DNA of 63,062 bases, the filler included, from Reclinomonas americana ATCC 50394 (Eukaryota): the NCBI GenBank assembly GCA_048213135.1. It is 17 parts of 17 records of this genome, joined end to end, with 100 filler letters (N's around TTAATTAATTAA, not from the genome) between each part and the next. Parts side by side here need not be neighbours in the genome. Positions count along the whole stretch, not along the records: positions 32,363 to 34,153 come from AFZH01017469.1; positions 34,254 to 38,248 come from AFZH01017470.1; 15 more parts are not named here. One strand, written 5' to 3'. A program made the translations under genes and the position numbers. Below are positions 32,363-36,058 of this stretch, piece after piece. Under the pieces are notes generated by a model that saw only the letters and a list, made by a program, of their open reading frames with translations, did no database searches and had not been told where the DNA came from. Position 1 is the stretch's first letter, and each line of letters starts with the position of its first letter.

Positions 32363-35300
32363 CAGCTGGTGCGCGTGACCGGCATCCTGCATCGGCACCG
32401 CCTCACTATGCACGACATGAGAACGCGCAGCATGCAGCTCTGGCACGTCAAACACACTCACCTCAGCAGCAACTTCAACCAGCCATCCTGAATGCCGGCA
32501 AACACGTCCGCCGCACGCCACTCGAGTTCCTCGCGAGTGATAGTGTAGTCCATCAGTGTCGGGCCTGCGAAAACGGCTGTAAGCATCGTGGTGTTGAAAC
32601 TCTTCTCCACCTCACAACGAAACGAGTGACAAACAGACTGCCGTTCACCGACAGCAGCTGCAGGTCGACGGGCTCCACCGGCCCACTGCTGGCTCCGAAG
32701 AGCGCCAGCATGCCACGACGACGGAGCACCTTGAGGCCATGCAGGAAGGTGTCCTTGCCGACGCCATCGTACACCACGTCCACACCGCGGCCTGCAAGAG
32801 TGTGAGCAGGGATACCTCACCCTCACTAGTTTCTACGATAATAGTGCTCATCACTCGTTCTCTTTTTCTCACATGCACACACTCCATCCTTCAACCGAAT
32901 CGATTCGGTCTTTGCTGCCTTCCCTTTAACCATTCACACTCACTGCCCTGCTCATATGAATACAAGCGCATATTCCCTCACTGGCGTCATCGACATTTCT
33001 ATGCGTGCGGTCTTTGCTGCATCCCCTTTAACCACTCACACTCACTGCTCTGTATAATATGAATGCAAGCATGTATCCCCGCATGGACTCTGCTGAGCCC
33101 TCTCTTTCCCTCACACTCACTGGCGTAATTGATTTCTGTGCAAGTACACACGCATACTCACTTTAGTTCAACAAATCTCGCTCTCATACCAATCAATTCT
33201 CTTCCCACTCAGTCGCTCATTCTCACACTTCCCTCTGTTTTACATGCATCCGCTCTCCTCCCCTTCAGCCTTCCCTATCTCATTCCCCACCACCCACTAT
33301 CCAAGCACGCACTCACTCATGCGCCAGCATCAACCCGTTCTCCTCTGAATCTCAAACTCAACACACCCTTTCCTCTCCCTCCCTCCTGCCTCTTCCCCCT
33401 CTCCCTCCCCCTCTCCCTCCCCCTCCCCCTCCCCCTCCCCCTCCCCCTCCCCCTCACCCCCTCCCCCTCACGCACCAGCCGTAATCTCCTTGACGCGATC
33501 CACCCACGACTCCTGCACGTAGTTGACGACATGATCGCAGCCGACCTGCGCGGCCTCGGCGGCCTTGGCATCGGTGGACACAGTGCCGATGACGGTGGCG
33601 CCTGCGAAGTGGGGAGGGCGGTGAGAAAACAAGAGACAATGATATTGAGCGAGATAAGGAGGCTGACAAAGACGCGGCAAGAGGAGGAGAGAGAAATACA
33701 GAGAGACAGTGACTCTCGCAAAGAGGCCTGACAACTCTGTCTGGATCTGTGCATGATTTCTCTTTCTATGCGTGCTTAAATGATTGAAACAAGGAGCAAT
33801 TACAACTCGCTGCTGCAACTGCCACTCACGCTGTCATTTCTCTTTCCATCTTTCTCACTCCTCTTTCACACCAAAAGTCATCGGAGACTCTGGAATCCCA
33901 ATCGCGCCGACACTGGCGACTTCCATTGTCTCACGTTTTTCTGTTTTTTTCGTCTCACTATCTCCTGCGACTCATCGCTACACAATTGAGGGTTCGACAT
34001 CAACAATAAAGGGAGCAGGCACAACAAACAGTGCAAAGTGCCAGAGCGTGTTATCTGCAGCTGTCATACACCAATCTTGTCGCTACCCACTATCTGTCTC
34101 TTCCTCTTACTCTTCCTTTCTCCAGACCCTTCCCCTTTCCCCCTTTTCCCCATNNNNNNNNNNNNNNNNNNNNNNNNNNNNNNNNNNNNNNNNNNNNTTA
34201 ATTAATTAANNNNNNNNNNNNNNNNNNNNNNNNNNNNNNNNNNNNNNNNNNNNGTGCACCACACACGTCTGCCCGGCCTTCAACTCAAACACCGAGTGCA
34301 CCAAGTAATGCGCCGTCATGCCCTGCAACAGCGCCGCCGCCGCCTGCTCCAACCCCACCCCCTCCGGCACGCGCACCAGCGACGCAGCCGGCGCCACCAC
34401 GTACTCGGCGTAGCACGAGGTGCCGGTGAAGGCCACGCGGTCGCCCACCTCAAAGCCCTCCACGCCCTCGCCCAGCTCCTTGATGGTGCCGGCGGCCTCG
34501 CGCCCCTAAGGGGGAGGGAAGTGAGCGGGGGGGAAAGAGGGCAAGGGAGAAGAAAGCGACAAACCAGAATCAGCGGCAGGCCGGCCTTGTTGTACGGCGG
34601 AATGCCCTGGCGGATGTATGTGTCGATAAAGTTGACACTGCGCGAGGCACGCGATGTCAGCGGGAGAAATAGATACGCGGTAGAAAGGATAGAAAGATAC
34701 AGCTGCTTCTGACCTGCGCACAGAGAGAGGCAGAGTGCAAGATGGAGAGAGAGAGAGAGACAAAAGGGACGAGGAACGCGAAGAGAGTACAGCTCATCCC
34801 TCCTGCGCGCTGTCTCCCCATGTGCAAGACTGTGCTTTTGGTCTGTCATCTCCGACCCTATGTCTCGCCCTGTCAGTCAAGGCGAATGGAATGCAAACGA
34901 GATGCACGCAGCTTTTCACACTGCGTCCTGCAACTCGTCACATCTTCTGCGGCGAAGAGCACGAAGGAAACCTGATTGCGTCATACGGAAAGACGCGAAC
35001 ACGTGCGAAAGGAATGCAAAGCAATCTCCCTCTGCTGCCAAAGCCTTGTCTTTCCCTTGCAGAAAGGACAGCTGCTTCCTTCACACTCATCGGAGTGGGC
35101 GAGCGAGAGACCGACAGAAAGAGAGTCAGAGACAGCAGGACCGATTTCTTCGCCAAACCTTGTCTCTCCACTCACAATGGGAAGAGCAGAAAGTGACAGC
35201 AGCTTGCTCTGACACACTGAGCGATGCAAGAAGAAGAGAGGAGAGAATCGGAGACAGCTGAGTGCAATACATGCTGCGGAATGCTTCTCACTCTGTCGCC

Positions 35301-36058
35301 AAAGCCGTGTCTCGCTCATCCCTCTGTGAAGAAGGGGCAGCAGCTTGCTCCATGCAAAACGATGCAAGAGGGAGACAGGAGAGACCGACAGAAAGAGAGT
35401 CGGAGACACCTGTGCAGAATGCAGACTGCAGTCGCCTTGTCTCTCCACTCACTCCTGGCCTTGTTACAGAAAGAGACAGCTGCGTACTCTCACACTGAAC
35501 GACGCAGGAGGGAGACAGGAGAGACCAACAGAAAGAATGTCGGAGACATCGGAATGCAATGAACGATGTTGCAGATTGCCTCTCCACTCACACCAATGCC
35601 TTGTCTCTCAAGTCACTCCTGCCCTTGTGACAGAAAGGCAGCTGTTTGTTCTCAAACTGAACCATGCGAGGGAAAGAGAGGAGAGACCAACAGAAAGAGA
35701 GTCGGAGACAGCTAAAATGCAATGAACGATGTGTCACACTGCCTCTTACTCTGCCACCAAGGCTTTGTCTGCACATCGAAGAGCAGCTTACTCCCACACA
35801 AAACGATGCAGCAAATACACAACACCAAGGAATGCAAGATAATCTCTCATCATTCCCTCCCGCCTTCCCCTCTCCCTACTCCCCTTGTCCTCTCTCCTCT
35901 CCCTTTCCCCCTCCCTCCCTCCTCTGATGACGCAACCCGGCCGCCACCGTCTCCACCAACACCTGCCCCGGCGCCGGCTTCGGCATCGCCACCGCCTTCC
36001 ACACAATGTTCTCCGCCCCGCCGTACTCCTCAACCACAGCCGCGTACATTGTGCTCAT
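32363..36058 (-). CDS. qor: NADPH:quinone oxidoreductase, zeta-crystallin/QorA-type MDR family (final codons in a gap)
   Basis: MSTMYAAVVEEYGGAENIVW...PAPGQVLVETVAAG|VNFIDTYIRQG, REAAG, GDRVAF, AAAALLQGMTAHYL, GATVIGTVST, GVDVVYDGVGKDTF, FGASSGPV, GSLFVTR|PTLMDY. Confidence 0.93.
34950..35800. repeat. Degenerate ~120-180-bp tandem repeat in qor intron 1
   Basis: Recurrent GAGACC(G/A)ACAGAAAGAGAGTCGGAGACA and GCCTTGTCTCT motifs. Confidence 0.75.

What the first reader, a model, noticed from the sequence alone, without database searches (positions are those of the whole stretch)
32363..36058. Qor/zeta-crystallin protein as candidate for the orphan 4-oxalocrotonate to 2-oxoadipate reductase
Seen: this gene starts 56 bp from the deaminase, head to head. 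Known: the eukaryotic route continues by NAD(P)H reduction of the enone 2-oxo-3-hexenedioate to 2-oxoadipate, and to my knowledge that step has no firmly assigned gene. Zinc-independent MDR proteins include enone/alkenal C=C reductases. No bacterial-type oxalocrotonate decarboxylase or hydratase is visible in the window. Inference by association: this Qor closes the pathway.
Basis: inference. Interest (0 to 1): 0.85.

Follow-up and report, generated by a model that had tools for sequence, protein, structure and literature searches.

The report
Candidate reductase beside tryptophan-breakdown genes
An ordinary-looking quinone-reductase-type gene sits back to back with the deaminase of a four-gene tryptophan-breakdown cluster in an unplaced eukaryote, and fungal DNA shows the same pairing, which makes it a testable candidate for a step that has no known gene.

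Summary
A seven-exon, zinc-independent quinone-oxidoreductase (QOR) type MDR gene lies on the minus strand at 36058-32363. Two assembly linkers cut it. Its ATG is 56 bp from the ATG of a 2-aminomuconate deaminase (AMD) gene. ACMSD and an ALDH8-type dehydrogenase follow, so the cluster has four genes. No 4-oxalocrotonate decarboxylase, 3-HAO or HGLS gene is in the window.

Against a general link: I fetched 117 AMD loci from elsewhere, and none of the 37 from bacterial genomes carries a QOR-like gene; 36 of the 117 carry the decarboxylase type instead. For it: two fungal-type metagenome contigs (L110, L114) also place a QOR-family gene beside AMD, from a different, Zta1-like branch of the family. 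In L110 the order is 3-HAO, ACMSD, ALDH, AMD, HGLS (a 2-oxoadipate-consuming enzyme), QOR. That layout leaves one unassigned reaction, enone to 2-oxoadipate, and one unassigned oxidoreductase.

A June 2026 preprint leaves this step open, and I found no paper proposing a QOR. No activity, expression or whole-genome data were available. My confidence in the proposed function is about 0.45.

The parts
35937..36058 (-). Qor exon 1 (ATG at 36058; a second in-frame ATG at 36049)
   Evidence: GT donor; the exon carries the GroES-like N-terminus.
34565..34637 (-). Qor exon 2 (contains the GVNFID motif, with Asn at the zinc-Cys position)
   Evidence: AG and GT junctions.
34255..34505 (-). Qor exon 3 (starts GREAAG; kept as P0001), cut by the linker
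34154..34253 (.). 100-bp assembly linker (N44 + TTAATTAATTAA + N44). It hides the end of exon 3, where the NADPH-binding glycine motif is expected.
   Evidence: the window row is blank at profile columns 144-162.
33476..33601 (-). Qor exon 4
   Evidence: Pfam ADH_zinc_N.
32624..32791 (-). Qor exon 5
   Evidence: Pfam ADH_zinc_N; NF008024 at E 7.5e-17.
32462..32564 (-). Qor exon 6
32363..32405 (-). Qor exon 7, follows a 56-nt intron and is cut by the linker at 32263-32362
   Evidence: the profile match ends at position 307 of 322.
36059..36114 (.). 56-bp spacer between the two divergent start codons; presumed shared promoter region
   Evidence: The promoter role is inferred; no shared motif with the ACMSD-ALDH spacer was found.
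36115..36210 (+). AMD exon 1, an acidic, low-complexity N-terminal extension that is not conserved in homologues
   Evidence: phase-0 GT donor joining exon 2. The exon itself is inferred.
37202..37343 (+). AMD exon 2, carrying the family signature [24 protein letters not shown]
38407..38436 (+). AMD last exon (AVAVAPSRS, then stop). The middle of the gene is lost in the linker at 38249-38348.
   Evidence: it fits the C-terminus of alignment A1. In one search only exon 2 aligns by tblastn.
38497..43411 (-). ACMSD gene, at least eight exons, tail to tail with AMD about 60 bp away
   Evidence: Pfam Amidohydro_2; exons read; tblastn; 63-72% identity to named ACMSDs.
45022..48913 (+). ALDH8-type (2-aminomuconate or 2-hydroxymuconate semialdehyde) dehydrogenase gene, head to head with ACMSD; it crosses the linker at 46504-46603
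   Evidence: Pfam Aldedh on 6 ORFs; TIGR03216 or HpaE among the top NCBIfam matches, first for 3 of the 6 ORFs; tblastn.

Best explanation
The gene encodes a zinc-independent, NADPH-dependent MDR of the quinone-oxidoreductase (QorA / zeta-crystallin) family. In this organism it is the fourth member of a 3-hydroxyanthranilate-branch gene cluster.

Proposed pathway:
1. ACMSD makes 2-aminomuconate semialdehyde.
2. The ALDH8-type enzyme oxidises it to 2-aminomuconate.
3. The RidA-family deaminase (AMD) releases ammonia and gives 2-oxohex-3-enedioate, the keto form of 4-oxalocrotonate.
4. The Qor transfers a hydride from NAD(P)H to C4 of this enone, and protonation at C3 yields 2-oxoadipate.
5. 2-Oxoadipate then enters the common 2-oxoadipate route. 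In the fungal contig L110 it would go to HGLS instead.

Shown: the family assignments, the gene order and spacing, the absence of the decarboxylase route in the window, and a recurrence of AMD-QOR linkage in two fungal-type contigs.

Inferred: co-regulation from the 56-bp divergent spacer, the substrate, and the reaction.
For: 1. The cluster is tight. Qor and AMD start codons are 56 bp apart. AMD and ACMSD lie tail to tail about 60 bp apart. The ALDH is head to head with ACMSD. Three of the four genes are consecutive pathway enzymes.

2. The bacterial continuation is absent. No FAA_hydrolase, 3-HAO or HGLS match appeared in 389 window ORFs or by tblastn. Elsewhere, 36 of 117 AMD loci carry an FAA_hydrolase-type gene, usually directly after AMD.

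3. The pairing recurs independently. A Qor profile hit 2 of 117 AMD loci (1.29 Mb in all), L110 and L114, both fungal-type.
- L110 reads Zn2Cys6 regulator, 3-HAO, ACMSD, ALDH, AMD, HGLS (PF07063 '2-oxoadipate dioxygenase/decarboxylase', E 2.5e-141, full profile), Qor.
- L114 has AMD and Qor tail to tail.
- The two fungal Qors are 54-56% identical to each other while their AMDs are 50% identical. They form a clade (support 1.0) apart from the window's Qor, which nests among bacterial-type Qors. They are 34% identical to the window's Qor. Two different QOR branches therefore sit beside AMD.

4. There is chemical precedent inside the family. PMC5343027 (passages seen) groups yeast and human zeta-crystallins with alkenal and alkenone reductases of the MDR superfamily; its reference list cites papers whose titles report alkenal/one reductase activity for them. 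The 2-haloacrylate reductase 1wly, which by its PDB name acts on an unsaturated carboxylate, matches the L110 Qor at 164 bits.

5. The step is open. The June 2026 preprint stops the fungal branch at 2-oxohex-3-enedioate. PMC7842363 says reduction to 2-oxoadipate is possible but names no gene.

6. A parallel case: a Flavobacteriaceae operon (L021) that lacks FAA_hydrolase carries an SDR without YxxxK between ALDH and 3-HAO.
Against: - The linkage is not general. None of the 37 bacterial-genome AMD loci has any Qor-like ORF, even at E <= 10.
- Only 2 of the 16 fungal-type loci have one. Of the 5 fungal-type loci with at least 7.5 kb downstream of AMD, only 1 (L110) has it. The others show transporters instead.
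- The window's Qor looks like an ordinary bacterial-type Qor. It is up to 52.6% identical overall and 65% identical on exon 3 to proteins named NADPH:quinone reductase, and it nests among them.
- No residue marks AMD-linked copies. The Arg in GRE is shared with yeast Zta1, and PMC7842363 reports that Saccharomycotina lack the 3-hydroxyanthranilate cluster.
- No whole genome is held. I therefore cannot say whether this is the organism's only Qor, or whether a decarboxylase or another reductase lies elsewhere.
- There is no assay. The gene is incomplete in the assembly.
- The preprint found no further co-evolving partner in its human-gene screen and suggests that broad-specificity enzymes act downstream.
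Confidence: 0.45

Rival explanations
1. The Qor is a housekeeping quinone or electrophile reductase that lies next to the cluster by chance. It has no role in tryptophan catabolism.
For: Its sequence is that of a typical bacterial-type Qor. None of the 37 bacterial-genome AMD loci and 14 of the 16 fungal-type loci lack a QOR neighbour. A reader scanning for any oxidoreductase next to a pathway gene will sometimes find one by chance.
Against: The 56-bp divergent arrangement is as tight as the spacing between true pathway genes in the window. The same family recurs beside AMD in two fungal-type contigs out of 132 kb of such sequence. The same profile found nothing in the other 1.15 Mb of AMD loci. 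The fungal copies belong to a separate family branch, so one inherited accident cannot explain both cases.
Confidence: 0.25
2. The Qor is functionally tied to the cluster, but as a protective enzyme. It would reduce quinone or quinone-imine products formed by autoxidation of 3-hydroxyanthranilate or 3-hydroxykynurenine, or it would mop up reactive enones in general. It would not be an obligatory pathway step.
For: Quinone reduction is the name-giving activity of the family. The pathway intermediates are described as labile and redox-active in the preprint's introduction. This reading would also explain recurrent but facultative clustering.
Against: In L110 the Qor lies at the distal end of the cluster, next to AMD and HGLS and not next to 3-HAO. 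In the window it pairs with AMD. Neither the window nor L114 holds a 3-HAO gene. The idea that 3-hydroxyanthranilate quinone-imines are Qor substrates is my own recollection and was not tested.
Confidence: 0.15
3. The Qor catalyses a different reduction in the same branch. One option is direct reduction of 2-aminomuconate, analogous to metazoan ASPDH/AMR. Another is reduction of a semialdehyde.
For: Human ASPDH shows that NAD(P)H-dependent reduction of 2-aminomuconate itself is biologically used (abstract and sections 7 and 12 of 10.64898/2026.06.05.730449).
Against: A dedicated deaminase is its closest neighbour in all three QOR-bearing loci. That makes the deaminated enone the more economical substrate. 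The preprint reports AMD and AMR as mutually exclusive.
Confidence: 0.08

Closest known systems
Bacterial NADPH:quinone reductases of the QorA type (NCBIfam NF008024; PDB 1qor, 3jyl, 4rvs, 9kuj)
   Same: Same family and domain layout, and no zinc ligands. Exon 3 is up to 66% identical, and the spliced model up to 52.6% identical, to such proteins. The window's Qor nests among them in the tree.
   Different: The gene is eukaryotic, with at least six introns. It is paired divergently with a 2-aminomuconate deaminase. None of the 37 bacterial-genome AMD loci shows that pairing. It has Arg in the GxE motif, which only 3 of 106 bacterial homologues have.
Yeast Zta1 and human zeta-crystallin (PDB 3qwa/3qwb, 1yb5), grouped with alkenal and alkenone reductases
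   Same: Same QOR family. C=C reduction of alpha,beta-unsaturated carbonyls is the chemistry proposed here (PMC5343027 passages, with its cited titles). The Arg of GRE is shared. The clustered fungal Qors of L110 and L114 match Zta1 best (210 bits).
   Different: The reported substrates are quinones and lipid-derived alkenals or alkenones, not a 2-oxo-dicarboxylate. Zta1 comes from a lineage reported to lack the 3-hydroxyanthranilate cluster. The window's Qor matches Zta1 less well than it matches bacterial Qors (41.7 against 58.2 bits on exon 3).
2-Haloacrylate reductase (PDB 1wly)
   Same: A QOR-family enzyme that, by its name, reduces the double bond of an unsaturated carboxylic acid. It is the nearest precedent for a carboxylate enoate substrate.
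   Different: Its substrate is a small halogenated acrylate. It has no link to aromatic or tryptophan catabolism. What I know of its reaction beyond the PDB title is recalled.
Human ASPDH / 2-aminomuconate reductase (preprint 10.64898/2026.06.05.730449)
   Same: An NAD(P)H-dependent reductase acting directly after ALDH8A1 in tryptophan catabolism. It was found by comparative genomics.
   Different: It belongs to an unrelated fold family. It reduces 2-aminomuconate without deamination. It is reported as mutually exclusive with AMD. No ASPDH-type domain was found in the window ORFs scanned.
Tyrosine-less SDR inside Bacteroidota kynurenine operons
   Same: A reductase embedded in AMD-containing clusters that lack the decarboxylase route, proposed for the same orphan step. 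I saw one instance in L021, with SNTIR in place of YxxxK.
   Different: It is an SDR, not an MDR, and it is bacterial. If both readings hold, this is a non-homologous replacement.

Membership tests
QOR (zinc-independent MDR; QorA / zeta-crystallin family) | Two-domain MDR architecture: a GroES-like N-terminal domain plus a Rossmann domain | tested here: met
   ADH_zinc_N on exons 4 and 5. The spliced model aligns to positions 1-307 of a 322-position Qor profile at 382 bits.
QOR (zinc-independent MDR; QorA / zeta-crystallin family) | Catalytic zinc ligands of alcohol dehydrogenases are absent | tested here: met
   GVN and GRE occupy the Cys and His ligand positions. Which positions are the ligands is recalled MDR knowledge.
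QOR (zinc-independent MDR; QorA / zeta-crystallin family) | Glycine-rich NADPH-binding motif (AxxGxxG) | not testable with these tools
   The motif falls in the assembly linker at 34154-34253. The window row is blank at profile columns 144-162.
QOR (zinc-independent MDR; QorA / zeta-crystallin family) | The best curated family model is NADPH:quinone reductase | tested here: met
   NF008024 is the top hit for exon 3 and for the ORFs holding exons 4 and 5 (E 1.9e-14, 5e-8, 7.5e-17); the ORF holding exon 1 matched only TIGR02824 (PIG3-type Qor, E 1.7e-4). Scores are below the full-length cut-off, as expected for single exons.
Enone (alkenal/one) reductase activity on 2-oxohex-3-enedioate | NAD(P)H-dependent C=C reduction giving 2-oxoadipate | not testable with these tools
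Support comes only from gene context.
2-Aminomuconate deaminase clade of RidA/YjgF (the neighbouring gene) | Family signature around YPHxR...[10 protein letters not shown] and close identity to named AMDs | tested here: met
   All 13 invariant columns of alignment A1 are kept in exon 2. It is 75-81% identical to proteins named 2-aminomuconate deaminase. The middle of the gene is missing.
ACMSD | Amidohydro_2 fold with close identity to named ACMSDs over the metal-site exons | tested here: met
   Pfam PF04909 on two ORFs. 63-72% identity to named ACMSDs. Exons cover residues 1-325 of a 353-residue homologue.
2-Aminomuconate / 2-hydroxymuconate semialdehyde dehydrogenase (ALDH8 type) | Aldedh fold, with hydroxymuconic-semialdehyde dehydrogenase models as the best curated match | tested here: inconclusive
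   TIGR03216 or TIGR02299 rank first for 3 of the 6 exon ORFs and within the top four to six for 2 more; for one ORF TIGR03216 ranks sixteenth. Identity to an AMD-adjacent bacterial ALDH is 36-49%. Single exons cannot separate ALDH subfamilies firmly.
Bacterial meta-cleavage lower pathway (4-oxalocrotonate decarboxylase / hydratase) | An FAA_hydrolase-family gene next to AMD | tested here: not met
   No PF01557 match in the 389 window ORFs. tblastn with 8 seeds gave one hit, at E 0.96. Such a gene is present in 36 of the 117 AMD loci from elsewhere.

The most novel reading that the evidence does not exclude
QOR-family MDRs are the long-missing 'oxalocrotonate reductase' that closes the deaminase (AMD) branch of eukaryotic tryptophan catabolism at 2-oxoadipate. 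They would have been recruited to AMD clusters at least twice from different family branches: a bacterial-type Qor in this unplaced eukaryote and a Zta1-type Qor in fungi. In some fungi the branch would then continue through HGLS to 2-hydroxyglutarate and not through 2-oxoadipate dehydrogenase.
Probability: 0.4. Interest if true: 0.85.

Novelty: new variant of a known kind. Interest (0 to 1): 0.68.

Why it matters
The fate of 2-aminomuconate in eukaryotes has been open for decades. A June 2026 preprint assigns ASPDH in metazoa and AMD in fungi, but it leaves the AMD branch ending at the reactive enone 2-oxohex-3-enedioate.

This work adds two things:
- Concrete candidate genes: one from this window, and a complete, intron-free one in L110.
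- A cluster (L110) in which a 2-oxoadipate-consuming enzyme sits between AMD and the candidate.

Together these turn the question into a one-week enzyme assay, using a substrate preparation that the preprint already describes.

If the assignment is confirmed, it would complete the pathway map for AMD-bearing eukaryotes. It would also give zeta-crystallin-type proteins a defined metabolic substrate, and it would show that this step is filled by non-homologous enzymes (MDR, SDR, or the decarboxylase route) in different lineages.

Tried and rejected
- **Whole genome of the window's organism:** none is held. Paralogue counts and a search for decarboxylase, HGLS, 3-HAO or ASPDH genes elsewhere in the genome were therefore impossible.
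- **Public sequencing runs for 34255-38248:** none was listed, so I have no view on expression or splicing.
- **Earlier notes of this scan:** lookups by place, by sequence and by the full word set returned nothing.
- **Shared promoter motif:** I compared the Qor-AMD spacer with the ACMSD-ALDH spacer. There was no shared word of 12 or more bases. The single 11-mer lies in coding GCT repeats, and 10-mers occurred at about chance level.
- **A residue signature for AMD-linked Qors:** rejected.
  - Arg in the GxE motif is shared by the window, L110 and L114 and is rare in bacterial homologues (3 of 106). Yeast Zta1 has it too.
  - Cys at profile column 183 is shared by all three, occurs in 3 of 106 bacterial homologues, and is Ala in Zta1. 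I cannot place it in the active site.
- **L002 as a slime-mould contig:** I first read it this way because of a Dicty_CTDC repeat protein. I dropped that reading because ALDH, AMD and FAA_hydrolase are packed there as in an operon.
- **Placing the organism:** the best named relatives reach only 63-72% identity (ACMSD exon: early-diverging fungi and bacteria) and 75-81% identity (AMD exon: dictyostelids and a chytrid). Cluster look-ups gave no names.
- **HGLS in the other loci:** it is present only in L110 of the 117 loci.
- **Not run:** structure prediction and complex prediction.
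Full report
**What the window is.** The sequence is an intron-rich eukaryotic scaffold. It is built from contigs joined by 16 identical 100-bp linkers (N44, TTAATTAATTAA, N44). I scanned 389 stop-to-stop ORFs with Pfam, chosen as 60 aa or longer, entropy above 3.6 and fewer than 5 X (147 + 135 + 107 ORFs). The hits, in window order, are:
- a TPR protein;
- a protein kinase;
- a BRCT protein;
- Rab GDI (about 28.7-31.4 kb, minus strand);
- the Qor;
- a RidA-type gene, recognised from its sequence and not by Pfam;
- an Amidohydro_2 gene (minus strand);
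- an aldehyde dehydrogenase (plus strand);
- an adenosine-deaminase-like gene;
- a histidine kinase.

No whole genome is held for this window.

**The observation.**
- I modelled the Qor gene as seven minus-strand exons with canonical GT..AG junctions. It has 294 codons and no stop. It aligns to positions 1-307 of a 322-position profile built from 106 full-length homologues, at 382 bits.
- Two linkers remove the stretch that should carry the NADPH-binding glycine motif and the last ~15 residues.
- Three of the four exon-bearing ORFs scanned match NCBIfam NF008024, NADPH:quinone reductase, best; the one holding exon 1 matched only the PIG3-type Qor model.
- GVN and GRE replace the zinc-ligand Cys and His of alcohol dehydrogenases (ligand positions recalled).
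- The start codon at 36058 lies 56 bp from the ATG at 36115 of a plus-strand gene.
- Exon 2 of that gene (37202-37343) is 75-81% identical to proteins that their sources name 2-aminomuconate deaminase, in dictyostelids and a chytrid among others. Relatives of 63-73% identity are also present in Piptocephalis, Reticulomyxa, Creolimax and Myxococcales. The exon keeps all 13 invariant columns of the family alignment.
- Only exon 2 and a nine-codon last exon of this deaminase are assembled. The rest falls in a linker.
- Both genes share one gap-free contig, so the adjacency is physical.

**The cluster.**
- AMD ends at 38436. About 60 bp further on, an eight-exon ACMSD gene ends on the other strand. 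Its first exon is at 43316-43411. Its largest exon is 63-72% identical to named ACMSDs.
- Head to head with ACMSD lies an aldehyde dehydrogenase. The hydroxymuconic-semialdehyde dehydrogenase models rank first for 3 of its 6 exon ORFs and near the top for two more.
- So Qor, AMD, ACMSD and ALDH occupy about 16.5 kb, and three of the four are consecutive enzymes of the 3-hydroxyanthranilate branch.
- The window holds no FAA_hydrolase-type decarboxylase or hydratase, no 3-HAO and no HGLS.

**State of knowledge.**
- The preprint 10.64898/2026.06.05.730449 (I read the abstract and sections 3, 5, 6, 11 and 12, and ran a term search) reports three things. Fungi use a bacterial-type AMD that yields 2-oxohex-3-enedioate. 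Metazoa use ASPDH as a 2-aminomuconate reductase. The later steps are unknown. The words 'quinone' and 'crystallin' do not occur in its text.
- PMC7842363 (passages) describes the ascomycete 3-hydroxyanthranilate cluster. [quoted passage not shown]
- A 2026 review names an 'oxalocrotonate reductase' only in a figure legend, with no gene.
- No paper in the library holds both '2-aminomuconate deaminase' and 'quinone oxidoreductase', or both 'zeta-crystallin' and 'kynurenine pathway'. The searches gave no gene assignment either.
- I could not see the preprint's supplements.

**Test of conserved linkage.**
- I anchored scans on AMD, not on the ubiquitous Qor.
- From species-representative prokaryote genomes I obtained 37 loci. 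A Qor profile run over all 4216 ORFs of 70 aa or longer found nothing, even at E <= 10.
- Pfam on the neighbours of 17 of these loci shows the usual order ALDH, AMD, FAA_hydrolase. Acetaldehyde dehydrogenase and aldolase follow in L007 and L010. L014 and L016 carry larger kynurenine clusters that add 3-HAO, ACMSD and kynureninase.
- From metagenome contigs I obtained 80 more loci.
- Over all 117 loci (1,285,716 bases), FAA_hydrolase-type genes occur in 36 and Qor-like genes in 2, L110 and L114.

**The two positive loci.**
- Both belong to a group of 16 loci (132,120 bases) that I call fungal-type. Their AMDs match that of L110 at E <= 4e-42. Their GC content is 46-57%. ACMSD or ALDH genes are split across ORFs in 10 of them.
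- L110 carries a Zn2Cys6 / Fungal_trans regulator. Its gene order is:
  1. FMO-like gene;
  2. the regulator;
  3. 3-HAO (minus strand);
  4. ACMSD;
  5. ALDH;
  6. AMD;
  7. HGLS (PF07063, '2-oxoadipate dioxygenase/decarboxylase', E 2.5e-141 over the whole profile);
  8. an intron-free 326-residue QOR-family gene on the opposite strand.
- L114 (4.4 kb) has AMD and an intron-split Qor tail to tail.
- The two Qors are 54-56% identical over most of their length, while their AMDs are 50% identical. Their best solved relative is yeast Zta1.
- In a FastTree of 109 sequences they form a clade (support 1.0) outside the bacterial-type set. The window's Qor is nested inside that set. It is 34% identical to the L110 protein.
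- Among the fungal-type loci with at least 7.5 kb downstream of AMD (L101, L105, L110, L111, L116), only L110 has the Qor. L101 and L111 show transporters there.
- The linkage is therefore recurrent but facultative.

**What this means.**
- L110 is the most telling piece of evidence. Every gene from ring opening to a 2-oxoadipate consumer is present. One reaction lacks an enzyme (enone to 2-oxoadipate), and one oxidoreductase lacks a reaction.
- The window shows the same pairing with a Qor from a different family branch. A single inherited accident therefore cannot explain both cases.
- As a rough estimate (inference, not a computed test): if QOR-family genes occur about once per one to several megabases, then two hits in 132 kb of fungal-type AMD flanks, plus the window, are far above expectation. 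The same profile found none in the other 1.15 Mb.
- Chemical plausibility is good. PMC5343027 groups zeta-crystallins with alkenal and alkenone reductases and cites papers titled for that activity. A family member named 2-haloacrylate reductase has a solved structure.
- Operons that lack the decarboxylase can hold another reductase. L021, a Flavobacteriaceae MAG, has an SDR without YxxxK (SNTIR instead) between ALDH and 3-HAO. This agrees with earlier unchecked notes of this scan.

**What weakens it.**
- The window's Qor has nothing that sets it apart from general Qors. The Arg of GRE is rare in bacterial homologues (3 of 106), but it is shared with yeast Zta1, and Saccharomycotina are reported to lack the cluster.
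- Most AMD loci have no QOR.
- I have no expression data (none was listed), no genome, no assay and an incomplete gene.
- A protective role against quinonoid by-products would also fit recurrent clustering.
- The preprint's authors suspect broad-specificity enzymes downstream. That is compatible with a general Zta1-type enzyme doing the job unlinked in most fungi.

**Verdict.**
- I put about 0.45 on the specific reaction, about 0.25 on chance adjacency, and the rest on other pathway-related roles.
- The organism could not be placed. Its conserved exons are at most 72-81% identical to anything named.

Noticed in passing
L110:11511-12944 (+), between AMD and Qor: A full-length HGLS (PF07063, 2-oxoadipate dioxygenase/decarboxylase) lies inside a fungal-type 3-hydroxyanthranilate cluster. 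This suggests that the branch ends at 2-hydroxyglutarate in some fungi. I found no paper linking HGLS to tryptophan catabolism (listing only).
   Followed up: partly
L021:11823-12596 (+): A Flavobacteriaceae MAG operon reads KYNU, KMO, DUF1697, AMD, ALDH, SDR, 3-HAO, ACMSD and has no FAA_hydrolase. The SDR has no YxxxK motif and carries SNTIR in its place.
   Followed up: partly
P0131, P0135, P0137, P0143 and others; L033:9554-10981: There are fusion proteins of about 310-365 residues that join a cupin domain to the AMD-type RidA domain. In L033 a single ORF carries both RidA and 3-HAO. A fusion of the first and fourth enzymes of the branch supports the AMD assignment.
   Followed up: no
window 38497-38745 (-): The ACMSD has a C-terminal extension of about 60 residues after the conserved NALEFLG end. 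Its last part is rich in Asp and Ser. AMD exon 1 likewise encodes an acidic, non-conserved N-terminal extension (36115-36210).
   Followed up: no
window 35434-35746 and 37534-37764: There are tandem repeats inside introns: a 162-bp unit in 1.9 copies in Qor intron 1, and an 88-bp unit in 2.7 copies in the AMD intron. Introns are strongly purine-rich or pyrimidine-rich on one strand.
   Followed up: no
window, 16 sites (for example 32263-32362, 34154-34253, 38249-38348): Every assembly gap is the same 100-bp linker with a six-frame stop sequence in the middle, so true gap sizes are unknown. Gene colinearity across three of the linkers (Qor twice, AMD once) supports the scaffold order there.
   Followed up: yes
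window 60892-62524 (+): A histidine kinase (HisKA plus HATPase_c) is present in this eukaryotic scaffold, and an adenosine-deaminase-like gene lies at about 55.4-55.9 kb. Neither is linked to the cluster.
   Followed up: no
L002:3-2624: A record titled as a bacterial MAG encodes a protein with nine Dictyostelium-type CTDC repeats, next to an operon-like ALDH, AMD, FAA_hydrolase run. The origin of this contig is unclear.
   Followed up: no
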